Positions 21,906 to 58,706 of a stretch of DNA of 64,000 bases are shown here, piece by piece (position 1 is the stretch's first letter; each line of letters starts with the position of its first letter). A program made the translations under genes and the position numbers. A model generated the notes under the pieces. The model did no database searches. It saw nothing but the letters and a program-made list of their open reading frames with translations, and was not told the origin of the DNA. Location: positions 448,789 to 512,788 of the forward strand of contig CAVPJW010000004.1 in the NCBI GenBank assembly GCA_963705525.1, in the 5' to 3' direction. This DNA is from an uncultured Acidobacteriota bacterium. Its GTDB lineage: Bacteria > Acidobacteriota > Vicinamibacteria > Vicinamibacterales > CAVPJW01.

Positions 21906-21906
21906 C

Positions 21907-22710: not shown

Positions 22711-22738
22711 GAGGCCTATTCTATCCGGCACCGTGACG

Positions 22739-23449
22739 TCACTGCGCGGTCTCGCCAGGCCGAAGCTCGAGGACCTCAACGCCTGCTGGCTCCACAAGCG
22801 AGCGAAACGCGGCGACCGTTCCGGTCAACGAGGGGAACGTTCCGAAGTGCATCGGGATCGCCTGGCGCACTCCCAGCATCTGGCAGGCGCGGGCGGCCGC
22901 CGCGGGTCCCATCGTGAAACGATCGCCAATCGGAAGCATCGCGATGTCCGGGTGATGTAGCTCGCGGATGAGCGTCATGTCGCCGAAGAGCGCGGTATCC
23001 CCGGCGAAATACACGCATGGACCCGCCTCCATCGCCACGACGAATCCCGCCGGGTTCCCCAGCGTCATCACGTCGCCGTCGACGGTCACGCTGCTGCTGT
23101 GGAGCGCGGGGACCATCGTGATCGTCACGTCCCTGACGCGGATCGTGCCGCCAATATTCATCGCGTGGAGGCCCCGCAAGCCTCGACGCTCCAGCCAGCG
23201 ACACATCTCCAGGTTGGCGACCACACCGGCGCCGCTCCGGCGAGCCACCGGTTCGACATCGCCGAAATGATCGGCATGCGCGTGAGACGCCAGGATGAGA
23301 TCAACGGCCTCGAGATGCTTGTATGCGTCGGGACAGGCCGGGTTGTCGACCAGCCAGGGATCGAAGAGCAGCCGGGTGCCGTGGGGCGTCTTGAGCAGGA
23401 ACGTGCTGTGCCCCAGCCACGTGATGGCGAGACGGGAAGGTATCGTCAC
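22739..23449 (-). CDS. Metallo-beta-lactamase-fold hydrolase (UPF0173-like)
   Basis: ITWLGHSTFLL...ASHAHADHFGD motif. Confidence 0.85.
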   Translation of the reverse strand: MTIPSRLAITWLGHSTFLLKTPHGTRLLFDPWLVDNPACPDAYKHLEAVDLILASHAHADHFGDVEPVARRSGAGVVANLEMCRWLERRGLRGLHAMNIGGTIRVRDVTITMVPALHSSSVTVDGDVMTLGNPAGFVVAMEAGPCVYFAGDTALFGDMTLIRELHHPDIAMLPIGDRFTMGPAAAARACQMLGVRQAIPMHFGTFPSLTGTVAAFRSLVEPAGVEVLELRPGETAQ

Positions 23450-23461
23450 GAAGCCCGGATT

Positions 23462-24880
23462 CTACTCCTCCGTTCTCACGTATTCGAAATCGATAGGTTG
23501 GCGATTGATGCCGCGCTGAGGTGGAGCGATGTAGTTGGCGAAGAGCCCCGGCTGGTAGACGGGCTCGGTCATGATGCTCAGGAGATATTCCTTGTCCGCA
23601 GGCGACGGCAGCCACTCGTGCTTGCGGCGAGCCCACTCCTCGGCTGACAGGGGTTGTCCGGTGACGTCGCAGTGAAAGTTCGAGTACATCCCGATGCCCC
23701 TGTTGAACTTTCGATCCGGCAGCCTGAGGCGGTCCGACATTCCGTAGCGCTCGAAGATCCGGTTCCAGCGATCGACCCCCGACTGGCAGTCGTCCACATA
23801 CCAGTCGCGCAGCACCTCGTTGAGCGCGTTGCGCATCGGGACTTCTCTCGCCATGGCGTGGCCGTTTTCCATCATCGGGAGCCGGTAGAAGGCTTCCGTG
23901 ATGCGGTGATCCTCGAATTGATCCTCTTTGGCCCGGCCCTTCAACCCGTTGGCAAAATAGGACGCCGCATTGCTGGAGACCTCGCTGCCGTGGAGATCGA
24001 GGCTCTGGCTGAACCAGAAATTGAGGTGCTTCTGAATCGTCGGGAGATCGATCCCGCCGAGCTTGCGCACATCCTCAGAGTACCCGGACTCCTTCATCAG
24101 CTGACAGGTCCGCTCGATGATCCGCGCGACCCCGGTTTCGCCGACGAACATGTGGTGGGCTTCCTCGGTGAGCATGAATCGCGTGGTGCGCGAGAGCGGA
24201 TCGAGCGAGCTCTCGGACAGCGACATCAACTGCGACTTGCCGTCCCGATCCGTGAACATCGTGAACATGAAGAAGTCGAGCCAGGTCTCGATCGGCTCGT
24301 TGAACGCCTCGAGAATCCTCGGTTTGTCCCGGTTGCCGCTCGAACGCGCCAGGAGCTCCTCGGCCTCGTCTCGCCCATCACGCCCGAAGTACGAGTGCAG
24401 CAGGTAGACCATCGCCCAGAGATGGCGCCCCTCTTCGACGTTCACCTGGAAAAGGTTGCGCAGGTCGTACAGGCTTGGGCAGCGGCTCCCCAGACGCCGC
24501 TGCTGCTCGACGCTGGCCGGCTCGGTATCGCCTTGCGTCACGATAAGGCGGCGGAGCTGGTTGCGGAACTCTCCCGGCACTTCCTGCCAGACGGGCTGAC
24601 CGTAGAAGTCGCCGAACCCGATGCGGCGATCGTGCGTCGGCTCGGCGAGGAAGATGCCCCACCGATATTCCGGCAGCCGCACGTACTCGAAATGCGCCCA
24701 CCCTTCCGCGTCGACGCTGACCGCGGTCCGCAGATATACCTGATGATGCTGCTGGAACCCCTGCGGGCCCATGTCGCGCCACCACTCGAGATACTTCGGC
24801 TGCCAGTGCTCGAGCGCACGCTGCAGTCGTTTGTCGCTCGACAATCCGACGTTGTTCGGGATGCGTTCTGCGGAGATCAC
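23462..24880 (-). CDS. boxB: Benzoyl-CoA 2,3-epoxidase, oxygenase component B
   Basis: 472 aa. Blocks IPNNVGLS, IVTQGDTEPASVEQQR, LYDLRNLFQVNVEEGRHLWAMVYLLH, MLTEEAHHMFVGE and GINRQPIDFEYVR match my recollection of Azoarcus BoxB almost residue for residue. Confidence 0.92.
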   Translation of the reverse strand: MISAERIPNNVGLSSDKRLQRALEHWQPKYLEWWRDMGPQGFQQHHQVYLRTAVSVDAEGWAHFEYVRLPEYRWGIFLAEPTHDRRIGFGDFYGQPVWQEVPGEFRNQLRRLIVTQGDTEPASVEQQRRLGSRCPSLYDLRNLFQVNVEEGRHLWAMVYLLHSYFGRDGRDEAEELLARSSGNRDKPRILEAFNEPIETWLDFFMFTMFTDRDGKSQLMSLSESSLDPLSRTTRFMLTEEAHHMFVGETGVARIIERTCQLMKESGYSEDVRKLGGIDLPTIQKHLNFWFSQSLDLHGSEVSSNAASYFANGLKGRAKEDQFEDHRITEAFYRLPMMENGHAMAREVPMRNALNEVLRDWYVDDCQSGVDRWNRIFERYGMSDRLRLPDRKFNRGIGMYSNFHCDVTGQPLSAEEWARRKHEWLPSPADKEYLLSIMTEPVYQPGLFANYIAPPQRGINRQPIDFEYVRTEE

Positions 24881-26566
<1,686 letters not shown>

Positions 26567-26599
26567 TCAGATGTTCCGGGCGTCTCCGGACCTTGCGTG

Positions 26600-26619
26600 A
26601 TTTGAACGATCGTTCAAAT
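26600..26619. promoter_or_regulatory. Perfect 20-bp palindrome, candidate TetR operator in the boxC/tetR divergent region
   Basis: ATTTGAACGATCGTTCAAAT is its own reverse complement. It is followed by TATACT and further GAAC(C) half-site-like copies up to the tetR start codon. Confidence 0.5.
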
Positions 26620-26655
26620 TATACTGTAGCTCAGCGAACCGTTGAACCCTGAACG

Positions 26656-27315
26656 ATGAACCCTGAGCGCCCCCTTGACATCCTCAAATCGGCGGCGGCC
26701 GCCTTCCGGCGGCATGGTTATCACGGTTCGAGCGTCGGCAAGATCGCCGATGCGCTCGGCATGACGAAGGGCAGCCTCTACTATCACTTCAAAGACAAAG
26801 AGGCGATCCTGCTGGCCTGTCACACGTACTCGCTCGACGCGCTGCTCGCTCTCCTCGCCGACGTCGAGGACAGTTCAGCGCCGCCCGATGTGAAGCTCGA
26901 GCGGCTGGTCGCGGGGTTCGTGCACACGATTCTCGACGAGCTCCACGGCACGGCCCTGTTTCTCGACCTGGACGCACTCGGTCGACGCAACCTGCGACAG
27001 GTTGTCAAGCGTCGAGATCAGTTCGATCGCGGCATGAGGCGCGTCATCAGGGACGGCATTCGCCAGGGCGTGTTCGCGCCGGTCGATCCAAAGCTCGTCA
27101 GCTTCGCCATCCTTGGCGCGGTGAACTGGATCCCGCGCTGGTTCAAGCCGACCGGACGGGCCCACTCTGACGAGATCATCAGGACGTACAGCAGTTTCTT
27201 CATTCAGGGGCTTCGTTCCCGCAGCAAGGCCCCGAGGACTGTGGACAGAGGCCGACGCCGCCGACATCAGAAAGAGCGCCCTCGACGCCGGGTCGCAAAG
27301 CCTGGTGTACCATGA
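26656..27315 (+). CDS. TetR/AcrR family transcriptional regulator
   Basis: HTH block GYHGSSVGKIADALGMTKGSLYYHFKDKEAIL. Confidence 0.9.
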   Translation: MNPERPLDILKSAAAAFRRHGYHGSSVGKIADALGMTKGSLYYHFKDKEAILLACHTYSLDALLALLADVEDSSAPPDVKLERLVAGFVHTILDELHGTALFLDLDALGRRNLRQVVKRRDQFDRGMRRVIRDGIRQGVFAPVDPKLVSFAILGAVNWIPRWFKPTGRAHSDEIIRTYSSFFIQGLRSRSKAPRTVDRGRRRRHQKERPRRRVAKPGVP

Positions 27316-45630: not shown

Positions 45631-46263
45631 ATGCTGCCGCCCGTTATCCCGATCTTCCCGCTGCCGAACGTGGTGCTCTTCCCCGGCGTCTTTCTGCCTC
45701 TTCACATCTTCGAGCCGCGCTATCGGGACATGGTGCGAGACGCGCTCACCGGCGATCGCGTGATTGGCATGGTGTTGCTTCGCCCGGAAGGGCTCCAGGA
45801 CTATGAAGGACGGCCGCCGGTCTACCCCATCGGATGCGCCGGCCTCATCACGCATGCAGAGCGGCTTCAGGATGGTCGCTTCAACATCATTCTGCGAGGG
45901 CTCGAAAAATTCCAGGTCGTTGGCGAGGAGCACGACCGGACGTACCGACGCGCACACGTCACGCCGCTGCCCGAGCCCGCATCGGACGCCGAGCGTCGCG
46001 GGATCCGAGACGAACGGCGAAAGCTCGAGGCCCTGCTGAAGCTCGCCACCGAGCACTCGGGCACCGATCCTCGCGTGCCGTCTTCAGTGGCCGACGAAGA
46101 CCTCGTCAACGCGCTTGCCCAGTACCTGGAACTGGAGCCTGTCGAGAAACAGGCGCTCCTCGAGCGCGAAGGACCGCTCGCGCGCTGTCAGTCGCTCGTC
46201 GAGCTGCTCGAGATGAAAGTGATGGCCGCCCGCAACCCGATGTCCCTCGATTGGGCGCACTAG
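45631..46263 (+). CDS. Lon N-terminal (LON substrate-binding) domain protein, stand-alone
   Basis: IPIFPLPNVVLFPGVFLPLHIFEPRYRDMV is the hallmark start of the Lon N domain. No ATPase or protease domain follows. 7 nt after the VWA stop. Confidence 0.88.
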   Translation: MLPPVIPIFPLPNVVLFPGVFLPLHIFEPRYRDMVRDALTGDRVIGMVLLRPEGLQDYEGRPPVYPIGCAGLITHAERLQDGRFNIILRGLEKFQVVGEEHDRTYRRAHVTPLPEPASDAERRGIRDERRKLEALLKLATEHSGTDPRVPSSVADEDLVNALAQYLELEPVEKQALLEREGPLARCQSLVELLEMKVMAARNPMSLDWAH

Positions 46264-47255
46264 CCGGACGTTCCCACCGGAAACCGCTCGCAAAGCACCT
46301 TCACAATCGCGTCCCCGTGGAACCGCCCGTTCTCGATGAAGATCGGCGCGGTGTTCTTGCCCGTGATGGCTCCGCCGGCGATGAAGAGATTGGGAACGTT
46401 CGTCTCGAAAGTCTGGGGGTCGTGCTGCGCGACGCCATTACTCTCATTGACGACCACTCCCGCAGAGCGTAGTAACGCGAAGTCCGGATGGTAGCCCGTC
46501 AGCAGCAGCACGTTGTCGGCGTCGAGGTCCCGCGCCGTTCCTTTCGCGTCCACGCGAATCGTTCGGGGACCAATCTCGAGAATGCGGGTATCGAAATACG
46601 CCTTGACCGCCCCCTCCTTGATTCGATTCTCGATGTCAGGCTTCACCCAGTACTTGATGGTCGACTTGAGGGCCGAACGGTAGTGAACGAGCGTCACGAA
46701 CGCGCCGGCTCGGTGAAGGTCGAGCGCCGCCTCCGCCGCCGAATTCCCGCCTCCAACCACCACGACGCGTCGTCCATAGAACGCATGCGTTTCACTGAAG
46801 TAGTGAGACACGTGCGGAAGATCTTCACCCGGCACCCCCAGGCGATTTGGATGATCGTAGTACCCGATGGCCAGAACCACCGCACGGCACTTCCGTGTCG
46901 TCTCCCCGTCGCTCGTCACGCCGGTGACCGTGAAGGAACCATCATCGCTCGGACTGATGCCGCGGACGACTTCCCCGTAGTGAATCGGCAGCCGGAAGAT
47001 GTCCTGGACGCGACGGTAGTACCGCAGCACTTCGTGGCGCGTTGGCTTGTCGTAGGGCGACACAAACGGCACGTTTCCAATCTCGAGGAGATCGGCGGTC
47101 GTGAAGAACACCATCTGGGGCGGAAAGTGAAAGATCGAATTGACGAGGACACCCTTCTCGACGATCACGTAATCGAAACCGGCCTGCCCGGCCGCAATGC
47201 CCGCCGCCATTCCGGCGGGTCCGGCCCCCACGATGATCAGATCGTGAACGGTCAT
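46260..47255 (-). CDS. ypdA: YpdA-family FAD/NAD(P)-dependent disulfide reductase (putative bacillithiol disulfide reductase family)
   Basis: IIVGAGPAGMAAG, HYFSETHAFYGRRVVVVGGGNSA, TGYHPDF and IFIENGRFHG align with my recollection of B. subtilis YpdA. Start MTVHDL at 47255. Confidence 0.82.
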   Translation of the reverse strand: MTVHDLIIVGAGPAGMAAGIAAGQAGFDYVIVEKGVLVNSIFHFPPQMVFFTTADLLEIGNVPFVSPYDKPTRHEVLRYYRRVQDIFRLPIHYGEVVRGISPSDDGSFTVTGVTSDGETTRKCRAVVLAIGYYDHPNRLGVPGEDLPHVSHYFSETHAFYGRRVVVVGGGNSAAEAALDLHRAGAFVTLVHYRSALKSTIKYWVKPDIENRIKEGAVKAYFDTRILEIGPRTIRVDAKGTARDLDADNVLLLTGYHPDFALLRSAGVVVNESNGVAQHDPQTFETNVPNLFIAGGAITGKNTAPIFIENGRFHGDAIVKVLCERFPVGTSG

Positions 47256-47396
47256 ATGTCGGTGGTCCCGCGAACGTGTGCGGCCACCATGGTCGGCCGG
47301 CCGCACATCCACATTGCCCAGCATCTTGACACAATCGAGCGTCCGTCGGCCCGGACCGAGCGGGGTAGAATGCGTGTCGTCCAAGGAGCCCTCGCC

Positions 47397-49568
47397 ATGT
47401 CACATCCTCACCGCTTCGTGGTCGTCTCCATCGCTCTCGTGATCGCCACCCTCGCCGTGACAGGTGCGCAGGGGCGTCGGCCGATCGCCGAAACGGACCT
47501 GCTGAAGTTCGTCTGGGCCGCCGATCCGCAGGTGTCGCCCGACGGCAAACAGATTGCGTTCGTTCGTGTTGTGGTGAATGAAGACGAAGATCGATATGAG
47601 CACGCCATCTGGACCGCGCCCGTCGACCGATCGCAGCCACCACGCCCCCTGACGACCGGCGTGCGGGACACCGCGCCCCGCTGGTCGCCGGACGGCCGCT
47701 GGCTCGCATTTCTTCGTTCCGTGGACACGGATGGCAAGCCGCAGCCGGCGCAGTTGTTCGTCATGCCGACCGATGGTGGAGAGGCGCGCGCCGTCACCAA
47801 CCTTCCGAAGGGCGCCGCCGAGCCAGTCTGGTCGCCCGACAGCCGAATGGTGGCGTTCCAGTCCACGACGAGTCTGGAGGATCTGGAAAAACAGCAGGCG
47901 GAATCCCGCAAAGACCAGCCGGGCTCCACCGAACCGAAAAAAAAGCGCGAGAGCGACGTCCGGATCATCACGCGTGCGGTGTATCGATCGAACGGCAGAG
48001 GCTATCTCGATGCGGAACGTCACTCGCACATCTGGACGATAGCGATCCCTGCGGAAGGCGAGTCTCCAGCACCGACGCAGATCACCCGCGGGCAATTCGA
48101 TGAGAACGATGTCGTCTGGAGCCCCGACGGCGCGCGGTTGTTCTACACCTCAAACCGGGTCGATGAGGCGTACTACCTTGCCCAGGACGCCGATCTGTAC
48201 GCCGTGCCATCGACGGGCGGCGAGGCGCAGCTCATTGCCTCGATCGACGGCCAGATCGCCAATCCCGTCCCGTCGTCGGACGGCAAACGCATCGCCTTCA
48301 TCGGCACCCTGTCCGGCACACCGCTTCGTTCGTACAGCGAGGCCGACCTCTTCGTGACGGACAGCACCGCGGGAGCCACGCCCGTCAACCTGACGACGGG
48401 ATATGACTTCGACATCGATGGCGGCATCGGCGGCGATCAACGCGCGCCTCGCGGGACCGCTCATTCGACCGCGATCTGGACGAGCGACGGCAAGGGCATC
48501 ATCGTCGTGACGAGCGCGCACGGCAGCGCGAATTTGACGCGCATCGATGCGGCGACAGGAGCCGTGTCCCCGATCACCGATGGCGCACGTGATGTGATCT
48601 CCTACACGGCCAGTCGCGATGGCAACAGGCTCGCGCTGCTGGTGTCCACGCCGACCAGTGTTGGTGACATCTTCACGACCACTCTCTCCGGGTCGTCGTC
48701 TACGCTCGAACGCGTGACGTCGTTGAACGACAACCTCTTCGGCCAGCTCGCCGTGAGCGAGCCCGAGGAGATTTGGTATACGACCTTCGACGGGCGGAAG
48801 ATTCAGGGCTGGATCCTGAAACCTCCCGATTTCGATTCATCGAAGAAATATCCGTTCATTCTCGAAATTCATGGCGGGCCGCACGCCGCATATGGGAATA
48901 CGTTCACGCATGAGTTCTCGTGGCTCGCGGCCCGTGGTTACGTCGTGCTGTACACCAATCCGCGCGGCAGCACGTCATACGGCCAGGAATTCGGCAACCT
49001 CATTCAGTATCACTATCCCGGTGACGACTATCGCGATCTGATGGCTGGCGTCGATGAGGTCCTCAAACGCGGATACCTCGATGCCAAGCGTCTCGGGGTC
49101 ACCGGCGGGAGTGGTGGCGGCGTGTTGACGAACTGGACGATCACGCACACCAATCGATTCGCCGCCGCGGTCTCGCAGCGATCCATCGCCGACTGGTCGG
49201 GCTTCTGGTACACCGCCGACTTCACGCTCTACACGCCGACCTGGTTCAAAGCCGCGCCGTGGGAGGACACCGACGACTTTCGAGAACGATCTCCCATCAC
49301 ACACATCGCCAGCGTGATGACGCCGTTGATGCTCGTGGAGGGCGAAGCCGACTTGCGCACGCCTCCGTCCGACGGCGGAGAGCAGATGTTCCGCGCCTTG
49401 AAGTATCTGAAGCGTCCGGTGGTCATGGTCCGGTTCCCCGATGAAACGCACGAGCTCTCTCGATCCGGAAAACCCTGGCACCGCATCGAGCGGCTGCGCC
49501 ACATCGCCGGCTGGCTCGACAAGTACCTGCTGGGGAAAGACGCGGGAACGTACGCGCTTCCAGAATAA
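47397..49568 (+). CDS. S9 family serine peptidase (PD40 propeller + prolyl-oligopeptidase-type hydrolase)
   Basis: Signal peptide MSHPHRFVVVSIALVIATLAVTGAQG, SPDG blades, and GVTGGSGGGVLTNW nucleophile elbow. The ORF-track 5' extension (46488..47396) is antisense to ypdA. Confidence 0.9.
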   Translation: MSHPHRFVVVSIALVIATLAVTGAQGRRPIAETDLLKFVWAADPQVSPDGKQIAFVRVVVNEDEDRYEHAIWTAPVDRSQPPRPLTTGVRDTAPRWSPDGRWLAFLRSVDTDGKPQPAQLFVMPTDGGEARAVTNLPKGAAEPVWSPDSRMVAFQSTTSLEDLEKQQAESRKDQPGSTEPKKKRESDVRIITRAVYRSNGRGYLDAERHSHIWTIAIPAEGESPAPTQITRGQFDENDVVWSPDGARLFYTSNRVDEAYYLAQDADLYAVPSTGGEAQLIASIDGQIANPVPSSDGKRIAFIGTLSGTPLRSYSEADLFVTDSTAGATPVNLTTGYDFDIDGGIGGDQRAPRGTAHSTAIWTSDGKGIIVVTSAHGSANLTRIDAATGAVSPITDGARDVISYTASRDGNRLALLVSTPTSVGDIFTTTLSGSSSTLERVTSLNDNLFGQLAVSEPEEIWYTTFDGRKIQGWILKPPDFDSSKKYPFILEIHGGPHAAYGNTFTHEFSWLAARGYVVLYTNPRGSTSYGQEFGNLIQYHYPGDDYRDLMAGVDEVLKRGYLDAKRLGVTGGSGGGVLTNWTITHTNRFAAAVSQRSIADWSGFWYTADFTLYTPTWFKAAPWEDTDDFRERSPITHIASVMTPLMLVEGEADLRTPPSDGGEQMFRALKYLKRPVVMVRFPDETHELSRSGKPWHRIERLRHIAGWLDKYLLGKDAGTYALPE

Positions 49569-49575: not shown

Positions 49576-49597
49576 GCCGACCAAGTCGGTCGGCTTT
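49576..49597 (+). terminator. Weak hairpin after the S9 peptidase gene
   Basis: GCCGACC AAGTC GGTCGGC followed by TTTA. 7-bp stem with a short U-run. Confidence 0.4.
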
Positions 49598-49779
49598 ATC
49601 CAACCTGGACAGCCGTGGTGCCCGGTCGGCGGGGACAAATGCCCGCCCACTGGAAAACCAGCAGGAAACAGCCGAGATTTGGCTATGATCGTGCCCGAAC
49701 TCAGACTGGCCGTCATCCGTCCTGTCCCGTTCGGGACGCGGCTGGGCGGCACCCGAGTGTCCTGTCGTCAAGGAGAGCG

Positions 49780-51900
49780 ATGCGTATGCACGCACCGATC
49801 AAGTACGTCGAAAAAGGCGTGAGCGTAGCGGCCAACGGGGCCTGGTCCGTCTTTCAGTTCCTGAACAGTTTCAACCAGCGGCCATCGTTCATCCCGAAGT
49901 GGTCGGAGAAGCCCCTTCTGAAGTCGTACGAGAAGACCAAGCCGCCGCTCGGCTGGCCCCGCCAGACCGATTCGCTCTGTCCCGTCTGCGTGCGCGAAGC
50001 TCGTCAGGAGATTCTCGACGGCAAGAAGGATGTCAGCATCCTCCTGAACGAGAAGGTCGGCGAGATCAAGGCGACCATTCTCGAACGCGACGGCAAGATC
50101 CTGATGGTCAAGGACTGCCCGATTCACGGCCACTTCGAAGACGTCATGGCCATCGACACCGCGTTCTTCAAGCACCTCGAAGAGGTGTTCCCGGGACGCG
50201 ACATCCGCGCGCACAACGACGAGACGCTCCACAACCACGGCAGCAGCACCATCAAGCACGGACGCGGCTCGGTGCTCACCGTGGATCTGACGAACCGCTG
50301 CAACATGATGTGCGACCCCTGCTTCATGGACGCGAACCAGGTCGGGTTCGTCCACGAGCTCTCGTGGGAAGACATCCAAATGGTGCTGGACAACGCGATC
50401 AGCATCAAGCCGCGGCGCCAGATGTCGGTGCAGTTCTCCGGCGGCGAGCCGACGATCTCGCCGTATTTCCTCGACGCGGTGCGGTATGCGCGCAAGGTGG
50501 GCTACAACAGCGTGCAGGCTGCCACCAACGGCATCGAGTTCGCCAAGAGCCCTGAGTTCGCCAAGGCCGCCGCTGAGGCGGGGCTTCGCTACGCTTACCT
50601 GCAGTTCGACGGCATCGGCAACGCCGCCAATTCGCATCGCCGCGTCGGCAACCTCTTCGACGTGAAGCTGCGTGCGATCGAGAATTTGTACAACGCCGGC
50701 GTCGACATCGTGCCGGTCGTCACGATCGTCAACGGCGTGAACAACGAGCAGGTCGGTCGGATCATCGAGTTCGCGCTCGACAACCCGAAGAAGATCAACT
50801 TCCTCTCGTTCCAGCCGGTGAGCTTCACCGGCCGTGACGAGGAAATCACCGACGAGCGGCGTCACGCGCAGCGCTACACGCTGTCGCACCTCGCCCACGA
50901 CGTGAAGAACCAGACCGGTCTGGGCGAACCCACCCGCGACTGGTTCCCCATTTCCTTCATGGGCACCTTCACCGACTGGGCCGACGTCGTCCATGGACCG
51001 GACACGCAGTGGGGTCAGCTGACCTGCGGCTGCCATCCGAACTGCGGCGTCGGCATGGGTGTGATGATCGACAAGGAAACGAAGGAGGCCGTCCCCGTGA
51101 CGGCGTTCCTGAAGGCCGAGCAGCTGGCCAAGGACCTCGCGAAGGTCAACGACGCGGCCCGTGGCAAGTTCCTGTCGGTCGTGGGACTCGCCCTCGCGGT
51201 CGTCCGCAACTATGACCCGTTCAAGTCGCCGACGCACTTCAAGCTCACCGACCTCTTGAAGAAGTTCGACAAGACGTTCGGGGCGACGAAGAAGGCGCAG
51301 TCGGGTGGCTACGGCAAGGTCGAAGGCGATCGGACGGCGGACGACATCGCGAAGCGCCGCGCCGACCGCTGGAACTTCCTGTTCATCGCAGGCATGTGGT
51401 TCCAGGATCTCTTCAACTACGACTTCCGCAGGACGGAGATGTGCATCATCCCGTACGCCACGCAGCAAGGCGAGATTTCGTTCTGCGCCTACAACACGGG
51501 GATCGGGTGGCGGAACATCATCGAGAAGATGCACATGACGGCCACACTGACGAAGTGGTACGAGGAGCACGGCCGCCACGAGATCTTCGCGGGCGGCAAG
51601 AGCGTGCAGCTCGAGTCGAAGAATCATTCGCTGGCGCTCAACCCGGTCGCCGTGGCGGCGGGTGAGCAGCAGGACCTCGTCCTGGCCGGCGTCGCACGCA
51701 ACGCACGCGAGGAGAAGATCGCCGCGCGGGCGCGAACGCACGAGAAAGACCTCGAAGGCAGCCTGAAGGACGCGGCGCACCACCGCCAGATGGAGCAGCT
51801 CTACCGGCAGCATGTGCTGAAGGAGGCACCGGCCCCTCCCGTCATTCAGATTGCGGGACTCAAAGGCACGCCGAAGCCCGAGCCGACCACCGTCGGCTGA
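49780..51900 (+). CDS. tes: Radical SAM protein of the tetraether lipid synthase (Tes / GDGT-MAS, MJ0619) family
   Basis: AGGAGA lies 4 nt before the ATG. CPVC...DCPIHGH N-terminal Cys/His knuckle. TNRCNMMCDPC (CX3CX2C, nt 50299..50322). QFSGGEPT, ATNG, YLQFDG, SFQPVSFTGR, CGCHPNCG and the C-terminal CIIPYATQQGEISFCAYN. 706 aa. Confidence 0.85.
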   Translation: MRMHAPIKYVEKGVSVAANGAWSVFQFLNSFNQRPSFIPKWSEKPLLKSYEKTKPPLGWPRQTDSLCPVCVREARQEILDGKKDVSILLNEKVGEIKATILERDGKILMVKDCPIHGHFEDVMAIDTAFFKHLEEVFPGRDIRAHNDETLHNHGSSTIKHGRGSVLTVDLTNRCNMMCDPCFMDANQVGFVHELSWEDIQMVLDNAISIKPRRQMSVQFSGGEPTISPYFLDAVRYARKVGYNSVQAATNGIEFAKSPEFAKAAAEAGLRYAYLQFDGIGNAANSHRRVGNLFDVKLRAIENLYNAGVDIVPVVTIVNGVNNEQVGRIIEFALDNPKKINFLSFQPVSFTGRDEEITDERRHAQRYTLSHLAHDVKNQTGLGEPTRDWFPISFMGTFTDWADVVHGPDTQWGQLTCGCHPNCGVGMGVMIDKETKEAVPVTAFLKAEQLAKDLAKVNDAARGKFLSVVGLALAVVRNYDPFKSPTHFKLTDLLKKFDKTFGATKKAQSGGYGKVEGDRTADDIAKRRADRWNFLFIAGMWFQDLFNYDFRRTEMCIIPYATQQGEISFCAYNTGIGWRNIIEKMHMTATLTKWYEEHGRHEIFAGGKSVQLESKNHSLALNPVAVAAGEQQDLVLAGVARNAREEKIAARARTHEKDLEGSLKDAAHHRQMEQLYRQHVLKEAPAPPVIQIAGLKGTPKPEPTTVG

Positions 51901-51925
51901 TTCAGGTCCCATCAAGAAACAGAAA

Positions 51926-51956
51926 GGGCGGGTGGATGTCCACCCGCCCTTTTTTA
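51926..51956. terminator. Rho-independent terminator between convergent genes
   Basis: GGGCGGGTGG ATGT CCACCCGCCC followed by TTTTTT. Perfect 10-bp GC stem. Confidence 0.8.
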
Positions 51957-51984: not shown

Positions 51985-52644
51985 TCAGCGTCGCGTGCGT
52001 GGCGCGGGACCCGGGCGATATTCGACGCGGACGTTGCTGATCACCGCAATCGGTCGGCCGGGAGCCGAATACGTCGAGTCGCCATCCAGCCGCCCCACTG
52101 CGAGCTTCTCACCCAGGATCGACACCTCGTTCTCGACCTGCGGAATCGTGATCGTGACGCGCTCGGTTCCAGTCGGTGCGACGGCCTTGAACCCGCCCGG
52201 AAGCGCACCTCCAAGGATGCGGTCGACGAGATCCGTGGCCTTCCTGAACTCGCTTTGCACCACGGCGCGCTCAATCAGCGTATTGTCCATAGCCAGGACG
52301 CCGATCGTGGCGGTGTAGCGAGCGTACGCCTGATTGGTCCGGACTTCGGTTTCCGAGTAGGTGTGGCGGTTGTGAAGATCGAAGAACAGCTTCGTCGTGC
52401 CGCGATGGGGTGGAAGCTTGATGAGAACGCCCGCCTTGGGATCCGCGCCGGTAAGGATGTCGCAGAACGACCGCTTGGTGGACGCGCCGATTCCCAGCAC
52501 AGAAGGGCATATCATGTCGGCGGCGACGGTCTTGACGCTGGTCGTGGGGGTGGTGGCCTTTGTTGGTGGGCGTTTCTTCGTCTGCGCATCGGCAAACGAC
52601 GCGCACGCCACGACCAGAGCGACCGCAAGCGAGCAGGCGCGCAT
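51985..52644 (-). CDS. Hypothetical exported protein
   Basis: Signal peptide MRACSLAVALVVACASFADAQ. 219 aa with coding-like codon bias. No family recognised. Confidence 0.6.
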   Translation of the reverse strand: MRACSLAVALVVACASFADAQTKKRPPTKATTPTTSVKTVAADMICPSVLGIGASTKRSFCDILTGADPKAGVLIKLPPHRGTTKLFFDLHNRHTYSETEVRTNQAYARYTATIGVLAMDNTLIERAVVQSEFRKATDLVDRILGGALPGGFKAVAPTGTERVTITIPQVENEVSILGEKLAVGRLDGDSTYSAPGRPIAVISNVRVEYRPGPAPRTRR

Positions 52645-52709: not shown

Positions 52710-53315
52710 TCAGACGTCGGCGAGGCAGGCGACGGCATCCTTCGCCGATTCCATCGGAGGGGTGACGCTTCGGAGCCTCACGAGCTCGAGGAACTCCATT
52801 CGCGTTCTCGCATTGTCGCGGAACGCTCCGAGCATCGTGCTCGTCACGGCGAACGAGTTCTGCTTTTCCACGCCGCGCATGGACATGCAGAGGTGCGTGG
52901 CTTCCATCACGACGGCAACCCCCAGCGGCGCGACCTTCTCGCTGATGGTCTCGGCGATTTGGGCGGTCAGCCGCTCCTGAATCTGCAACCGCCGGCTGAA
53001 GATCTCGACGAGCCGGGGAATCTTGCTGAGGCCGATGACGCGATCGCGCGGGATGTAGGCCACGTGACACTTACCGAAGAACGGCAGCAGATGATGTTCA
53101 CAGAGGCTGTAGAAGTCGATGTCCTTTACGATCACCATCTCGCTATAATCGACCGTGAAGAGCGCGCCGTTCAGCACCTGATCGACGTCCATGTCGTAGC
53201 CGCTCGTGAGGAACCGGAGCGAGCGCTCGACGCGGGCCGGCGTATTGACGAGCCCTTCCCTCTCTGGATCCTCGCCAAGCTCGACGAGCATCTGTCTGAT
53301 GAGTTCCTTCATCAT
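52710..53315 (-). CDS. folE: GTP cyclohydrolase I
   Basis: [11 protein letters not shown] and [18 protein letters not shown] motifs. Confidence 0.95.
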
Positions 53316-55172: not shown

Positions 55173-56365
55173 TCACTTTTCGACATCGATGAGCGCCGCG
55201 ATTCCCTGTCCTCCGCCAATGCAGGCCGTGGCGATGCCACGACGCCTACCCCGCCGGCGAAGTTCGAGAAGCAGCGTCAGGATCAGACGCGTACCGGTCA
55301 TGCCGAGCGGGTGACCGAGCGCGATGGCGCCGCCGTTGACGTTCACCTTGTCGCGATCGAGGCCGAGCTCCTTCTCGACCGCGAGGTACTGCGCCGCAAA
55401 GGCCTCGTTGACCTCGATGAGATCGATGTCGTCGAGCGACAGCCCCGCGCGTTCCAGCAACCTTCGAGTGGCCGGCGCGGGACCCATACCCATTAGAGAC
55501 GGCTCGACGCCGACGACGGCCCAGCCGGTCAAGCGACCGAGCGGCTTCAGCCCTCGCCGTTCAACCGCCTTGGCGGACGCGAGCAGAAGCGCCGCGCCGC
55601 CATCGACGATGCCGCTGGCGTTGCCTGCGGTCACGCCGCCTTCCTTGGAAAATGCCGGCGGCAGCTTCGCGAGCGTCTCGAGGGTCGTGTCCGGGCGCAG
55701 ATGATCGTCCCGGGAAAATACGTCCACGCCTTTCCTGGTCTTGATCTCAACCGCGACGACCTCTTCGGCGAGCCGTCCTTCATTCCAGGCGCGCGCGGCG
55801 AGCTGCTGGCTCCGAAGCGCATAGCAGTCCTGCTCCTCGACGCGAGATGCCGTACTTCGCCGCGCAGTTCTCGGCGGTGCCCGCCATCGTGCAACCCGCA
55901 CTGCGTGTCGAGCAGACCCTCCCAGAGCGTGTCTTCGAGCTTGCCCTGTCCCAGCCGGAGGCCGCCCCGCAGTCCGCGAATGACGTGCGGCGCCTGACTC
56001 ATGCTCTCCATGCCGCCGGCGAGCACGATCTCCGCCTCGCCGAGCAGGATCATCTGTGCACCGCTCACCGCGGCTTGAATGCCCGATCCGCACAGCCGAT
56101 TCACCGTGAGGGCCGGCACCTCGATCGGCAGCCCCGCTTTGAGCGCGACATGACGGGCGCCGTAGAGGGCGTCGGGACTCGTCTGCAGGACGTTGCCGAA
56201 GACGACGTGATCGACCCATTCAGGCTCCACACCGGTCCGTGCGAGGGCGCCGCGCGAGGCGATGGCTCCCAGCTCGATCGCCGACACATCCTTGAGCGCG
56301 CCGACGTACGACGCCATCGGCGTCCTGGCGCCCCCCACGATGAACACATCCTGAGACATGGACAT
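55173..56365 (-). pseudogene. Acetyl-CoA C-acyltransferase (thiolase), two frameshifts (about 55839-55841 and 55888-55891)
   Basis: Three frames read MSMSQDVFIVGGARTPM...[10 protein letters not shown]...DTQCGL / [15 protein letters not shown] / [12 protein letters not shown]...[17 protein letters not shown]...CIGGGQGIA. Each junction is fixed by removing one base. Confidence 0.85.
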
Positions 56366-56393
56366 GGCTCCCTTGCTTCCGCCTTCCGATGGA

Positions 56394-57463
56394 TCAGCCT
56401 GCCGTCTTCCGGGCGTCCCGAATCGACCTGGCGATGCCGTCGCCCGTTTCGGTCGTGCCGAGACGGCCGCCGGCGTCGGCCGTGACACGGCCAGACAGCA
56501 CAGCGTCCTTGACAGCGTGCTCGACCGCCGCGGCTTCCGTTCCGAGGCCAAGGAACTCCAGCATCAGAGCCGCCGACAGGATGGCGCCAATCGGATTCGC
56601 CACGTTCTTGCCGGCAAACTTCGGCGCCGATCCGTGCACGGGCTCGAACATCGACGTGCGTCCCGGATGCAGGTTGCCGGACGCCGCCATGCCCAGCCCG
56701 CCCTGAAGCGGCGCGCCCAGATCCGTGATGATGTCGCCGAACAGATTGTTCGTGACGATGACCTCGAACTGCGACGGGATCCTTCACCAGGAACATCGCA
56801 AGCGCGTCGATGTAGACGTGCGTCGCGGCGATGTCCGGATACTCGGCTGACACTTCCTTGAACACGCGCTGCCAGAGCGCGTGGCCCTGCGGCCATGGCG
56901 TTGCTCTTGTCGGCCATGCACACCTTGCGTCGGCCCGTCTGTCGCGCGAACTCGAAGGCGTGCCGGACGATGCGATGCACACCCTTGTAGGTGTTCACCT
57001 CTTCCTGGATCGCGATCTCGTCGTCGGTTCCCGCCTTGAAGCGGCCGCCGATGCCGACATAGAGGCCCTCGGTGTTCTCGCGGAACACGACGAAGTTGAC
57101 GTCCTCGGGGCGCGCGACCCTTGAGCGGACACAGGCGCTCGTCGAGCAGGCGCACGGGACGGTAGTTGACGTACAGATCGAGCTCGAAGCGCGTGCCGAG
57201 CAGGATGTCGCGCGCGTGCCGCTTGTCGGGCACGCGCGGATCGCCGAGCGCGCCGATGAAGATCGCGTCGAATTCGTCGCGCAGCATGGCGTAGCCGTTG
57301 GGCGGCAGCGTGATGCCGGTCTGCAGGTAGTGGTCCGCGCCCACGGCAGCAAGTCGAGATCGAACGAGCGGCCGAACACGTCGCCGACGGCCCGGAGGAC
57401 CTTGACGGCTTCCGCCGTGACGTCCTTGCCGATCCCGTCACCGGGGATGACGGCGATTCGCAT
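56394..57463 (-). pseudogene. Tartrate dehydrogenase / 3-isopropylmalate dehydrogenase family enzyme, four frameshifts
   Basis: Segments [15 protein letters not shown]...LLPW / GADHYLQTG...CPLKGRAP / [16 protein letters not shown]...DKSNAM / GHALWQRVF...LVKDP / [19 protein letters not shown]...[19 protein letters not shown] lie in alternating frames. Junctions are near 57344, 57108, 56888 and 56775. Confidence 0.85.
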
Positions 57464-57500
57464 GATTAGTCGGCCGTACGAAACATCACGCCTTGAACCG

Positions 57501-58706
57501 TCAGACACGCTCGATCGCCAGCGCCATGCCCATCCCGCCGCTGACGCAGAGCGTCGCGAGCCCGCGACGCGCTGACGCCGCTCGAGCTCGTGCAGGAGCG
57601 TGACGACGATGCGGGCGCCGGTGCAGCCGATCGGATGGCCGAGCGCGATGGCGCCGCCGTTCACGTTCAGCCGCTCGGGCGCAATCGGCACGTCGCGGAG
57701 CACCGCGAGCACCTGCGGTGCAAACGCTTCGTTCAGCTCGACCAGATCGAAGTCGTCGAGGCCGAGCTGCGATCGCTCGAACAGCTTTCGCATCGCCGGC
57801 ACAGGACCGATCCCCATGATGCGCGGGTCGACGCCGGCGCTCGCCCAGCCAAGAATGCGCGCGCGCGGCGTCAGCCCGCGCGCGACCGCCGCGCTGCGGC
57901 TCGCCAGAACGACCGCCGCGCCGCCGTCGGTGATGCCCGAGGACGATCCCCGCCGTGATGATGCCGGGCTGTCCCTCGACATCGCCGAAGACGGGCGGAA
58001 GCTTCCGCAGGCTCTCGATCGTCGTATCGGGCCGCGGGTGCTCGTCGCGCTCCACCACGGTCGGCCTGCCCTTGGCGTCGGCGACCGTGACCGGCGCGAT
58101 CTCGCGGGCGAATCGACCCTCCGCGGCTGCGCGAGCCGCACGCCGCTGACTCTCGAGCGCATACGCATCGGACTCCTCGCGCGTGATGCCGTATTGACGC
58201 GCCAGCACCTCGGCGGTCTCGCCCATGATCAGTCCGGACAGCGGACAGTGGAATCCGTCGCGGTACATCGCGTCCACGAGCGGGAAGTTGCCCATCCGTG
58301 GCCCCACCGCGCGTCCTCGGAATCGAGCAGATACGGCATGCGGCTCATCGACTCGATGCCGCCGGCCAGCACGAATGTCGATTCGCCCAGCTGGATCTGT
58401 TGAGCGCCTGACACGATCGCCTGCAGGCTCGACGCGCAGGCCTTGTTGATCGTCTGGGCAGGAACCGAGACTGGAATGCCGGCGCGATGACCGACCTGCC
58501 GCGCGGGATTGGGACCGGAGCCCGCCTGGCGCCCGTGACCAATCAGAATGTCGTCGAGATCGGTCTCCCTCGAGGCGGGATCGCTCGAGAGCGGCCCGCG
58601 CCGCCACCGCGCCGAGCTCGGCGGGATGGACCGCGCGAAAGGCGCCGCCATATCGCCCGATCGGCGTTCGAGCAGCGCCCAGGATCACGACCTCAGGATG
58701 TGCCAT
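57501..58706 (-). pseudogene. Acetyl-CoA C-acyltransferase (thiolase), four frameshifts
   Basis: Segments MAHPEVVILGAARTPIGRYGG...AALERS / DPASRETDLDDILIG...INKACASSLQA...DARWG / PRMGNFPLVD...GIITAG / [11 protein letters not shown]...[17 protein letters not shown]...LHELERR / [23 protein letters not shown]. Junctions are near 58585, 58303, 57945 and 57573. Confidence 0.85.

What the first reader, a model, noticed from the sequence alone, without database searches (positions are those of the whole stretch)
49780..51900. Bacterial homologue of the archaeal tetraether lipid synthase (Tes / GDGT-MAS) as a stand-alone gene
The 706-aa product has, in order, seven motif blocks. (1) CPVC (aa 67-70) and DCPIHGH (aa 112-118). 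(2) TNR-C174NMMC178DPC181, the radical-SAM CX3CX2C. (3) QFSGGEPT. (4) ATNG. (5) YLQFDG and SFQPVSFTGR. (6) A second Cys group, C416-G-C418-HPN-C422. (7) C555IIPYATQQGEISFC569AYN near the end of the core. As I recall it, this motif series defines the MJ0619-type radical SAM family. That family was shown in archaea to join two archaeol tails head to head, making membrane-spanning GDGTs. Bacterial homologues have been proposed, but to my knowledge not demonstrated, as the missing enzyme for branched GDGT or other membrane-spanning lipids, notably in Acidobacteria. This copy has its own strong SD (AGGAGA), a ~180-nt leader and a perfect terminator (51926..51956). It also carries a ~60-aa N-terminal extension and a ~130-aa Lys/Glu/Ala-rich C-terminal extension that I do not associate with the archaeal enzymes. 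No other lipid gene is adjacent.
Basis: partly seen in the sequence, partly recalled or inferred. Interest (0 to 1): 0.8.

Follow-up and report, generated by a model that had tools for sequence, protein, structure and literature searches.

The report
Acidobacterial tetraether-synthase-like radical SAM gene
This is an intact, stand-alone gene from a soil acidobacterium (order Vicinamibacterales) whose enzyme is related to the archaeal one that welds two lipid tails into membrane-spanning lipids; it belongs to a very highly conserved acidobacterial branch that has lost one of the archaeal iron-sulfur clusters, and it is a good but untested candidate for the missing bacterial membrane-spanning-lipid synthase.

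Summary

- **Homology.** It is a real Tes/GDGT-MAS homologue. The match to PDB 7TOL has E=7e-64 over aa 95-594. The AlphaFold model matches 7TOM/7TOL with target TM 0.85.
- **Gene structure.** It is monocistronic, and 80 related loci show no conserved gene partner.
- **Not a canonical Tes.** The archaeal N-terminal [4Fe-4S] motif (CX3CX2C) is absent here and in all 82 orthologues examined.
  - The protein scores 315 bits against NCBIfam Tes, whose cutoff is 450.
  - It falls in a 100%-bootstrap clade separate from archaeal Tes and from the cluster-bearing homologues that pass that cutoff.
- **What is kept.** The radical SAM cluster, the rubredoxin-like site, the catalytic C-terminal cluster triad, and the equivalents of Met439 and Tyr459 are all retained.
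- **Distribution.** Full-length orthologues at 74-89% identity occur in Vicinamibacterales, Bryobacterales, Terriglobales and Blastocatellia. They are more conserved than the neighbouring orthologous genes that could be compared.
- **Prior literature.** By length and BLAST statistics it matches the second, unstudied Tes homologue of Solibacter usitatus (Acid_2410).

The best reading is a tail-to-tail coupler of iso-fatty-acyl lipid chains (iso-diabolic acid / brGDGT core), confidence about 0.55. Nobody has tested this. The class is already in the literature; the cluster-less architecture appears to be undescribed.

The parts
49576..49594 (+). Hairpin just after the stop codon of the upstream S9 peptidase gene. 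It probably terminates that gene and isolates the Tes-like gene transcriptionally.
   Evidence: 8 pairs, 6 G-C. The peptidase ORF ends at 49568.
49771..49776 (+). Shine-Dalgarno AGGAGA.
   Evidence: It lies 3 nt from ATG 49780 and 9 nt from ATG 49786.
49786..51900 (+). Coding sequence of the Tes-like radical SAM protein. It is 704 aa from the likelier start, or 706 aa if ATG 49780 is used. Residue numbers in this report count from 49780.
49780..49959 (+). N-terminal extension (aa 1-60), specific to this clade. It is predicted to form a helix at aa 6-31, is moderately amphipathic and carries a net charge of +6. It is conserved across the cluster-less clade.
49960..50151 (+). Rubredoxin-like metal site (Pfam Zn_ribbon_HMPTM) with ligands C67, C70, C113 and H116. 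It carries a 22-aa insert (aa 71-94) that archaeal Tes lacks.
   Evidence: The MJ0619 ligands C9, C12, C33 and H36 are from PMC9433317.
50188..50274 (+). Loop that replaces the archaeal [4Fe-4S]N motif (aa 137-165, FPGRDIRAHNDETLHNHGSSTIKHGRGSV). It has no cysteine. It is rich in histidine and highly conserved (H145, H151 and H153 at 90% or more). Model confidence is low here.
50275..50859 (+). Radical SAM core (aa 166-360). It holds C174/C178/C181, GGEPT, ATNG, YLQFDG, R288 and FQPVSFTGR. All the SAM / 5'-dA contact residues described for GDGT-MAS are conserved.
   Evidence: The contact residues are from PMC9433317.
50860..51546 (+). C-terminal helical (lipid-pocket) and auxiliary-cluster domain (aa 361-589). 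C422, C555 and C569 plus M539 correspond to the [4Fe-4S]C ligands with Met439. Y559 corresponds to Tyr459. C416 and C418 are extra invariant cysteines, and there is an insert of about 22 aa within aa 503-530.
   Evidence: Met439 and Tyr459 are from PMC9433317.
51547..51897 (+). C-terminal extension (aa 590-706). Residues 590-612 are conserved throughout the clade. The distal part is polar and rich in Lys, Arg, Glu and Ala, with a long helix at 642-678 and conserved islands ARNAREEK and LYRQHVLKE. The last ~20 residues are probably disordered.
51923..51952 (.). Bidirectional intrinsic terminator shared with the convergent gene 51985..52644 (-).
   Evidence: 13 pairs, 9 G-C; T-runs on both strands.

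Best explanation
The gene encodes a peripheral (not transmembrane) radical SAM enzyme of the Tes/GDGT-MAS family. Its most likely job is to join the terminal carbons of two iso-branched acyl or alkyl chains of membrane glycerolipids. That would produce the iso-diabolic-acid (C30) core of acidobacterial membrane-spanning lipids, including brGDGT precursors.

**Inferred mechanism, by analogy with the solved archaeal enzyme**
1. The C174/C178/C181 cluster cleaves SAM to give a 5'-deoxyadenosyl radical.
2. That radical abstracts H from the terminal methyl of one lipid tail.
3. The lipid radical is parked as a C-S adduct on the C-terminal [4Fe-4S] cluster (C422/C555/C569, with labile M539).
4. A second SAM cleavage activates the second tail, which attacks the adduct and forms the C-C bond.

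**Electron supply.** Electrons probably enter through the retained rubredoxin-like site (C67/C70/C113/H116). The surface [4Fe-4S]N relay of the archaeal enzyme has been replaced by a conserved His-rich loop.

**Shown here:** homology, fold, retention or loss of each metal site, clade structure, phyletic breadth, degree of conservation, and monocistronic organisation.

**Inferred:** the substrate, the product, the role of the extensions, and the electron path.
For: **Family membership by sequence and fold**
- PDB 7TOL matches at E=7e-64 over aa 95-594.
- BLASTP against MJ0619 gives 32% identity, E=1e-70.
- Pfam finds Zn_ribbon_HMPTM plus Radical_SAM.
- The AlphaFold model has pLDDT 80 and pTM 0.83. 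Its best PDB matches are 7TOM/7TOL at E=1e-39 with target TM 0.85-0.86; the next hit is at 1e-7.

**Catalytic residues are kept**
- The RS triad, the [4Fe-4S]C triad, and the equivalents of Met439 and Tyr459 are invariant in 58 aligned archaeal and acidobacterial sequences and in 82 acidobacterial orthologues.
- The SAM-contact residues reported for GDGT-MAS (PMC9433317) are conserved.

**Phyletic fit**
- At least 596 genome hits were found. The best 80 are full-length orthologues at 74-89% identity.
- They come from Vicinamibacterales, Bryobacterales, Terriglobales (including cultured Acidipila rosea) and Blastocatellia.
- These lineages correspond (my own mapping) to subdivisions 6, 3, 1 and 4, the ones reported to make iso-diabolic acid. 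The same paper found no Mss in Acidobacteria (PMC13159169).

**E. aggregans.** It makes iso-diabolic acid and brGDGT-Ia. It is reported to have one Tes homologue, whose statistics (32%, 4e-61; PMC8941075) match this clade and not the 40-42% archaeal-like type.

**Strength of selection.** In the genome pairs where a neighbouring orthologue could be compared, the protein was more conserved than each of them, including LipA. That fits a core function.

**Possible explanation of the negative literature result.** The published screen that found Tes homologues in only 3 of 14 iso-diabolic-acid producers required at least 30% identity. This clade sits at 30-32% identity.
Against: - No member of this clade has been tested.
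- A published screen found Tes homologues in only 3 of 14 iso-diabolic-acid-producing acidobacteria (PMC13159169). I could not re-screen those genomes.
- A distant Tes homologue of Thermoanaerobacter ethanolicus gave no membrane-spanning lipid in E. coli (preprint 10.1101/2022.04.21.487849).
- S. usitatus also carries an archaeal-like, N-cluster-bearing homologue (Acid_5929, 40%). Ca. Koribacter versatilis has a 42% homologue that is presumably of the same type. Either could be the real synthase in those organisms.
- One cluster of the archaeal enzyme is missing, so the electron path differs.
- Most acidobacteria are aerobes, and the enzyme needs oxygen-sensitive clusters.
- No lipid gene is linked in any of the 80 loci.
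- Divergent relatives in the same clade, for example Terriglobus roseus WP_014786616.1, have lost the catalytic cluster cysteines. The clade is therefore not functionally uniform.
Confidence: 0.55

Rival explanations
1. It is a lipid-modifying Tes-family enzyme that makes a different product from the iso-diabolic / brGDGT core. Examples would be an intramolecular macrocycle, a cross-link on an already formed spanning lipid (Gms-like), or coupling of some other hydrophobic chain. On this reading the archaeal-like homologue (Acid_5929 type) or an unknown aerobic enzyme makes the spanning core.
For: - The clade is separate from canonical Tes with 100% bootstrap and fails the Tes equivalog cutoff.
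- It has extra invariant cysteines, C416 and C418, and clade-specific extensions.
- S. usitatus carries both types.
- The family is known to generate more than one product: GDGT, GTGT and macrocyclic archaeol (PMC8941075, PMC9433317).
Against: - By the published statistics, E. aggregans appears to have only this type and still makes spanning lipids.
- The pan-acidobacterial distribution matches the phenotype that is widespread in the phylum, iso-diabolic acid.
- The catalytic residues for terminal C-C coupling are all retained.
Confidence: 0.22
2. It is a radical SAM methylase or another non-coupling enzyme. This follows the family's older annotation as a class D methyltransferase (7,8-dihydro-6-hydroxymethylpterin dimethyltransferase, HMPTM). 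It could act on a pterin, or it could install the mid-chain C5/C6 methyl groups of brGDGT-type lipids.
For: - JGI labels several orthologues as 7,8-dihydro-6-hydroxymethylpterin dimethyltransferase.
- InterPro IPR034474 is named Methyltransferase_Class_D (PMC9433317).
- GTP cyclohydrolase I (FolE), the first pterin enzyme, lies about 0.8 kb downstream at 52710..53315.
Against: - MJ0619 itself has been shown structurally and biochemically to be the lipid coupler (PMC9433317).
- The FolE adjacency occurs in only 5 of the clustered loci, all close relatives, and FolE is on the opposite strand.
- Pfam finds no cobalamin- or folate-binding domain in the protein.
Confidence: 0.08
3. It is a conserved protein with a non-catalytic or otherwise unrelated role. 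The Tes-like fold would be retained for lipid binding or redox sensing, not for lipid coupling.
For: - Divergent members of the clade (T. roseus P0256, P0270, P0315) have lost some or all of the [4Fe-4S]C cysteines (C422, C555, C569) and still persist.
- A surface cluster has been lost and replaced by a conserved His-rich loop.
Against: In the core orthologues, including the window protein, every SAM-binding and catalytic-cluster residue is invariant in 82 sequences. That is the signature of a working radical SAM enzyme.
Confidence: 0.05

Closest known systems
Archaeal tetraether synthase Tes / GDGT-MAS (MJ0619, PDB 7TOL/7TOM; MA_1486; NCBIfam NF045702)
   Same: - Overall fold: target TM 0.85.
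- Rubredoxin-like CX2C...CX2H site.
- Radical SAM CX3CX2C.
- SAM-contact residues.
- C-terminal [4Fe-4S] triad, with the labile Met and the conserved Tyr.
   Different: - No [4Fe-4S]N cysteine triad.
- A 58-aa N-terminal extension and a C-terminal extension of about 115 aa.
- Two internal inserts of about 22 aa each.
- Extra invariant cysteines C416 and C418.
- 32% identity to MJ0619, and 315 bits against a 450-bit cutoff.
- The presumed substrate is an ester- or ether-linked iso-fatty-acyl lipid, not archaeol.
Archaeal-like bacterial Tes homologues (S. usitatus Acid_5929, 545 aa, 40%; Ca. Koribacter versatilis, 42%; representatives P0304, P0309-P0312, P0316)
   Same: - Bacterial members of the same family.
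- Proposed in the literature for brGDGT or tetraester synthesis.
- Not tested biochemically in anything I could read.
   Different: - The sequenced representatives keep the CPxxCGxC N-cluster motif.
- They pass the Tes equivalog cutoff with 474-593 bits.
- They are about 500-630 aa long and are only 35-38% identical to the window protein.
- They fall on the archaeal side of the tree.
- That Acid_5929 and the Koribacter protein belong with these representatives is my inference from their length and identity; I did not see their sequences.
S. usitatus Acid_2410 (Q025C7, 714 aa), the 'second Tes homolog' listed by Halamka et al. 2022
   Same: Its length and its BLAST statistics against MA_1486 (30.1%, 4e-62) match the window protein. 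Bryobacterales and Solibacter-like MAGs carry orthologues 75-78% identical to the window protein.
   Different: Orthology is inferred from these numbers. I could not retrieve the Acid_2410 sequence itself.
Bacterial membrane-spanning lipid synthase Mss (Thermotoga maritima, Thermoanaerobacter ethanolicus)
   Same: A radical SAM enzyme that performs the proposed chemistry, tail-to-tail coupling of fatty acyl chains to diabolic or iso-diabolic acids. It is reported to share the catalytic architecture of Tes in 3D models (PMC13274423).
   Different: - A separate family, not detected as a Tes homologue (PMC13159169).
- Found only in anaerobes and reported absent from the acidobacterial genomes screened (PMC13159169).
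GMGT synthase Gms and the radical SAM (seleno)protein TrsS (NF045646)
   Same: Related radical SAM enzymes. TrsS is the second-best NCBIfam hit, at 214 bits.
   Different: - The TrsS score is far below its cutoff of 490.
- The best-scoring TrsS stretch covers only aa 95-380.
- Gms lacks the rubredoxin domain (PMC13459092).

Membership tests
Tes / GDGT-MAS (tetraether lipid synthase) | Radical SAM CX3CX2C cluster motif and SAM-binding residues | tested here: met
   C174/C178/C181, GGEPT, YLQFDG, R288 and FQPVSFTGR are invariant.
Tes / GDGT-MAS (tetraether lipid synthase) | N-terminal rubredoxin-like Fe site, CX2C...CX2H | tested here: met
   C67, C70, C113 and H116 are invariant. Pfam PF23545 matches at 1.1e-13. 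The spacer is X42 compared with X20 in MJ0619, because of a 22-aa insert.
Tes / GDGT-MAS (tetraether lipid synthase) | N-terminal auxiliary [4Fe-4S]N cluster (C73-X3-C77-X2-C80 plus His in MJ0619) | tested here: not met
   The aligned segment is LHNHGSSTIKHG. None of the 82 orthologues has a Cys in aa 137-165. Only H153, which aligns with MJ0619 His83, is kept.
Tes / GDGT-MAS (tetraether lipid synthase) | C-terminal auxiliary [4Fe-4S]C cluster (3 Cys plus labile Met439) and conserved Tyr459 | tested here: met
   C422, C555, C569, M539 and Y559 are invariant across archaeal and acidobacterial sequences. The assignment of the three MJ0619 cysteines is inferred from invariance; it was not read from the crystal structure.
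Tes / GDGT-MAS (tetraether lipid synthase) | Overall four-domain fold with hydrophobic lipid pockets | tested here: met
   Foldseek against 7TOM/7TOL gives E=1e-39 and target TM 0.85-0.86. The pocket lining was not examined residue by residue.
Tes / GDGT-MAS (tetraether lipid synthase) | Score at or above the curated NCBIfam equivalog cutoff (NF045702, 450 bits) | tested here: not met
   The window protein scores 315 bits. The whole cluster-less clade scores 239-414. MJ0619 scores 744, and N-cluster-bearing homologues score 474-593.
Tes / GDGT-MAS (tetraether lipid synthase) | Catalyses Csp3-Csp3 coupling of lipid tail termini | not testable with these tools
   This needs enzyme assays or genetics with lipidomics.
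Mss (bacterial membrane-spanning lipid synthase) | Sequence homology to T. maritima / T. ethanolicus Mss | not tested
The literature reports no Mss homologues in the acidobacterial genomes screened (PMC13159169).
Class D radical SAM methyltransferase (HMPTM annotation) | Pterin-linked genomic or domain context | tested here: not met
   FolE is adjacent only in close relatives, 5 of the clustered loci. Pfam finds no folate- or cobalamin-binding domain.

The most novel reading that the evidence does not exclude
This pan-acidobacterial Tes-like enzyme, which lacks the N-cluster, is the long-sought synthase that works in aerobes and makes the iso-diabolic-acid / brGDGT membrane-spanning core in soil Acidobacteriota. 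Earlier genome screens under-counted it because it sits right at the 30% identity threshold. Loss of the surface-exposed [4Fe-4S]N cluster, together with the added N- and C-terminal segments, would be an adaptation that lets a Tes-type radical enzyme work in oxygen-exposed cells.
Probability: 0.4. Interest if true: 0.85.

Novelty: new variant of a known kind. Interest (0 to 1): 0.55.

Why it matters
Branched GDGTs are among the most widely used continental palaeotemperature and pH proxies. The enzyme that makes their membrane-spanning core in aerobic soil bacteria is still unidentified.

- **A sharper candidate list.** Acidobacteria carry two distinct Tes-like types. The one that is widespread across the phylum and extremely conserved is the cluster-less long form found in this window. 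PGAP names it only 'radical SAM protein', and 30%-identity screens can miss it.
- **A concrete marker.** If it is the synthase, it gives a specific gene for tracing brGDGT and iso-diabolic-acid producers in metagenomes.
- **A mechanistic question.** It would also be a natural experiment on which metal centres of Tes are dispensable.
- **The alternative.** If it is not the synthase, its conservation still points to an important unknown lipid or redox function in one of the most abundant soil phyla.

Tried and rejected
1. **Gene neighbourhood as a functional clue.** I clustered ORFs from 80 loci, ran Pfam on the most frequent neighbours, and searched specifically for the TPR, peptidase and Yip1 neighbours. 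No partner occurs in more than 9 loci, and none is lipid-related.
2. **Leader RNA and promoter.** Rfam found nothing below E=0.1 in 49300-52300. No sigma-70-like promoter was found.
3. **Pterin link through FolE.** Rejected, because the adjacency is not conserved.
4. **Exact look-up of the window protein's contig.** Not on record.
5. **Genome scan with the 8-sequence alignment A3.** It was repeated with A4.
6. **Identifying cultured hosts.**
   - The third homologue search returned mostly unnamed metagenome proteins.
   - Three look-ups of Mb-scale contigs returned long-read metagenome contigs without organism names.
   - Only Acidipila rosea, Terriglobus roseus (divergent paralogue) and genus-level MAG labels were obtained.
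7. **Published presence/absence tables.** The Sahonero-Canavesi supplements are not held. The Zeng supplements contain no strain names. Chen et al. 2025 (GCA) is not held.
8. **First tree attempt.** It timed out and was redone with numpy distances. The result is a neighbour-joining tree only, midpoint-rooted, with no outgroup.
Full report
**1. The observation**

The window has 64% G+C. The ORF at 49780..51900 (+) has the codon-position GC pattern of a real gene, 0.61/0.42/0.87. The equally long ORF on the opposite strand is the usual high-GC mirror artefact.

The Shine-Dalgarno AGGAGA (49771-49776) sits 3 nt from the first ATG and 9 nt from the second ATG at 49786. Public orthologues are called from the second Met (704 aa), so 49786 is the more likely start.

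A strong hairpin with T-tracts on both strands (51923-51952) lies between this gene and a convergent gene. Another hairpin (49576-49594) follows the upstream S9-peptidase gene. The gene is therefore a monocistronic unit. No Rfam family and no sigma-70-like promoter was found in the leader.

**2. What the protein is**

- Pfam finds the Zn_ribbon_HMPTM domain (aa 60-124) and a Radical_SAM domain (aa 170-332).
- The only close solved relative is GDGT-MAS of Methanocaldococcus jannaschii (7TOL, E=7e-64, aa 95-594). BLASTP identity to full-length MJ0619 is 32%.
- An AlphaFold model built on 58 sequences has mean pLDDT 80 and pTM 0.83. It matches 7TOM/7TOL at E=1e-39 with TM 0.85-0.86 normalised to the crystal structure. 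The next hits (SkfB, MoaA, HydE) are at 1e-7 and cover only the radical SAM core.

Homology to the tetraether synthase family is therefore secure.

**3. Site-by-site comparison with the archaeal enzyme**

The ligands of MJ0619 are taken from Lloyd et al. (PMC9433317). They are:
- a rubredoxin-like Fe site, C9-X2-C12-X20-C33-X2-H36;
- [4Fe-4S]N, bound by C73, C77, C80 and a His;
- the radical SAM CX3CX2C cluster;
- [4Fe-4S]C, with three Cys and the labile Met439;
- Tyr459, fully conserved in archaeal homologues.

Alignments with MJ0619 and other archaeal Tes proteins show the following for the window protein.

*Kept:*
- the rubredoxin-like site (C67, C70, C113, H116), which here carries a 22-aa insert;
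- the radical SAM triad (C174, C178, C181);
- the residues that contact SAM or 5'-dA (GGEPT, YLQFDG, R288, Q345, S348, T350, R352);
- the invariant C-terminal triad C422/C555/C569, with M539 (equivalent to Met439) and Y559 (equivalent to Tyr459).

*Missing:* the [4Fe-4S]N triad. Where archaea have G-C-P-x-D-C-G-L-C-x-x-H, this protein has LHNHGSSTIKHG. Only the histidine (H153) remains.

The model is poorly defined exactly there (aa 143-161, pLDDT about 45).

*Added features:*
- a 58-aa N-terminal extension, with a moderately amphipathic helix at 6-31 and net charge +6;
- an insert of about 22 aa within aa 503-530;
- two extra cysteines, C416 and C418, next to C422;
- a C-terminal extension of about 115 aa with a long polar helix at 642-678.

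There is no transmembrane segment.

**4. A clade, not an oddity**

An exhaustive search of 1.84 billion cluster representatives found 625 clusters at E<=1e-30. The full-length representatives fall into two groups.

| Feature | Cluster-bearing group | Cluster-less group |
|---|---|---|
| N-cluster cysteine motif | kept | absent |
| Identity to the window protein | 35-38% | 40-64%, plus the core orthologues |
| N-terminal extension | absent | usually present |
| Rubredoxin insert | absent | usually present |
| NCBIfam Tes score (cutoff 450) | 474-593 | 239-414 |

A neighbour-joining tree on 479 trimmed columns recovers the cluster-less group in 100% of 300 bootstraps. It is separate from archaeal Tes and from the cluster-bearing homologues.

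NCBIfam's curated Tes model draws the same line. MJ0619 scores 744 bits, the window protein 315 and the Acidipila orthologue 333. This explains why NCBI names these proteins only 'radical SAM protein'.

**5. Distribution and conservation**

A scan of one genome per GTDB species found at least 596 matches. The best 80 are full-length orthologues (aa ~3-700) at 74-89% identity. They come from:
- Vicinamibacterales;
- Bryobacterales, including a Ca. Solibacter MAG;
- Terriglobales / Acidobacteriaceae, including cultured Acidipila rosea DSM 103428;
- Blastocatellia;
- Ca. Angelobacter and Ca. Acidiferrales.

A few loci carry non-acidobacterial MAG labels, which are probably binning or labelling errors.

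In 82 orthologues, all 16 key residues checked are invariant, including C416, C418 and H153. None has a cysteine in the former N-cluster loop, yet that loop is itself highly conserved and His-rich (H145, H151 and H153 at 90% or more). Residues 590-612 of the C-terminal extension are conserved throughout. The distal part is patchy.

Wherever a neighbouring orthologue could be compared in the same pair of genomes, the Tes-like protein was the more conserved:

| Neighbour | Neighbour identity | Tes-like identity |
|---|---|---|
| LipA | 64% | 75% |
| PheA | 52% | 78% |
| MoxR-like | 62% | 76% |
| 3-hydroxyacyl-CoA dehydrogenase | 60% | 77% |

Selection on this protein is very strong.

**6. Genomic context**

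The whole window was annotated. It holds the pyruvate dehydrogenase complex, IlvBNCD, LipA, a box/paa-like CoA pathway, peptidases, FolE, a 3-hydroxyacyl-CoA dehydrogenase and thiolases. There are no glycerolipid, plasmalogen, Ger, ElbD or Grs-type genes.

Across 80 loci, no neighbour is shared by more than 9. The most frequent ones (QueG-like, TPR, amidohydrolase, MsrQ-like) are unrelated to lipids. 'Stand-alone' therefore holds for the whole orthologous group.

**7. What is already known**

- Zeng et al. (PMC8941075) reported 456 bacterial Tes homologues and proposed a role in brGDGT synthesis. They quote Koribacter (42%) and Solibacter (40%) as top hits, and one E. aggregans homologue at 32% and 4e-61.
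- Lloyd et al. noted bacterial homologues in their similarity network.
- Halamka et al. list two homologues in S. usitatus: Acid_5929 (545 aa, 40.2%, 1e-139) and Acid_2410 (714 aa, 30.1%, 4e-62). By length and statistics the window protein is of the Acid_2410 type.
- Sahonero-Canavesi et al. (PMC13159169) found no Mss in Acidobacteria. They found Tes homologues in only 3 of 14 iso-diabolic-acid producers, using thresholds of E<=1e-50 and identity >=30%. This clade lies at 30-32% identity, so that screen sits on its edge.
- Their preprint reports that a distant Tes homologue of T. ethanolicus gave no product in E. coli.
- Later papers and a 2026 review still describe bacterial Tes homologues as bioinformatic candidates, supported only by correlative culture data.

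In the library I could search, I found no description of the loss of the N-cluster, or of two distinct acidobacterial types.

**8. Most likely function**

The residues that define the Tes mechanism are all retained under strong selection. These are SAM cleavage, the sulfur-adduct cluster with its labile Met, and the conserved Tyr. The lipid-pocket domain has the same fold.

The orthologue is found in the acidobacterial lineages that correspond, by my own mapping, to subdivisions 6, 3, 1 and 4. Those subdivisions are reported to make iso-diabolic acid, and Acidobacteria lack Mss.

I therefore favour tail-to-tail coupling of iso-C15 chains on membrane glycerolipids (confidence 0.55).

Loss of the surface [4Fe-4S]N cluster means electrons must reach the radical SAM cluster by another path. 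The retained rubredoxin-like site, the conserved His-rich loop or an external flavodoxin or ferredoxin are the candidates. It is tempting, but unproven, to see the loss as an adaptation to oxygen exposure.

The rivals are:
- a different lipid modification (0.22);
- a methylase or pterin role, following the old annotation (0.08);
- a non-catalytic role (0.05).

Divergent clade members that have lost the catalytic cysteines, such as Terriglobus roseus WP_014786616.1, show that the clade is not functionally uniform. T. roseus is a useful test organism for that reason.

**9. Verdict**

The gene is one member of a published class of candidates, so the class is not new.

What the analysis adds:
- it belongs to a distinct cluster-less long-form clade;
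- that clade is widespread across Acidobacteriota and exceptionally conserved;
- curated annotation and identity-threshold screens under-detect it.

This makes a long-standing question in lipid biogeochemistry more directly testable, but it does not answer it.

Noticed in passing
P0256 (Terriglobus roseus DSM 18391, WP_014786616.1); also P0270 and P0315: These divergent members of the cluster-less clade (40-41% identical to the window protein) keep the radical SAM triad and the rubredoxin-like site. P0256 has lost all three cysteines of the C-terminal catalytic cluster (C422, C555, C569). P0270 and P0315 have lost C422 but keep cysteines at or near the C555 and C569 positions. They may be a neofunctionalised or degenerate paralogue. 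I could not tell whether T. roseus also has the core orthologue.
   Followed up: partly
window 55173..58168 (-); L001 17372..19646: The thiolase region looks odd. One 534-aa ORF combines a Thiolase_C domain with an isocitrate/isopropylmalate dehydrogenase (Iso_dh) domain, next to a 348-aa thiolase lacking most of its N-terminal domain. The related contig L001 shows a similar Iso_dh/thiolase fusion call. This could be a real fusion, overlapping genes or frameshifts.
   Followed up: no
window 52710..53315 (-): GTP cyclohydrolase I (FolE) lies about 0.8 kb downstream of a gene family once annotated as a pterin methyltransferase. The adjacency is confined to close relatives and looks coincidental.
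   Followed up: yes
window 46260..47384 (-); L001 8925..9770: A Pyr_redox_3 / thioredoxin-reductase-like flavoprotein lies divergently upstream. In L001 it is directly adjacent to the Tes-like gene; in the window it is separated from it by the S9 peptidase gene. It is shared only within Vicinamibacterales loci (59-60% identity). A role as electron donor is conceivable but unsupported.
   Followed up: partly
window 46488..49568 (+): The mechanical ORF of 1026 aa overlaps the flavoprotein gene on the other strand. The Pfam domains (PD40 repeats plus Peptidase_S9) start only after about 47460, so the real peptidase gene is about 700 aa.
   Followed up: partly
window 20315..27315: A cluster with an aldehyde dehydrogenase, two enoyl-CoA hydratase-family proteins (one of 561 aa), a weak PaaA/PaaC-like di-iron protein (472 aa), a metallo-beta-lactamase-fold protein and a divergent TetR regulator. 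It resembles an aerobic benzoyl-CoA (box) or phenylacetate-type CoA pathway.
   Followed up: no
L002, L006, L012 (genome-contig hits): Orthologues 81-89% identical to the window protein sit on MAG contigs labelled Betaproteobacteria, 'uncultured proteobacterium' and Bifidobacteriaceae. These are almost certainly mis-binned or mislabelled acidobacterial contigs.
   Followed up: no
window 50188..50274 (aa 137-165): The loop that replaces the archaeal N-cluster has no cysteine. It is nevertheless among the best conserved parts of the protein and is rich in histidine (H145, H151, H153, H160). It could bind a different metal or a partner protein.
   Followed up: partly
L042 8732..9787 and 8 other, mostly Bryobacterales-labelled, loci: A QueG-like epoxyqueuosine-reductase-type Fe-S protein, together with a TPR protein, lies divergently upstream of the Tes-like gene in 9 loci. 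The link is lineage-specific and of unknown relevance.
   Followed up: partly
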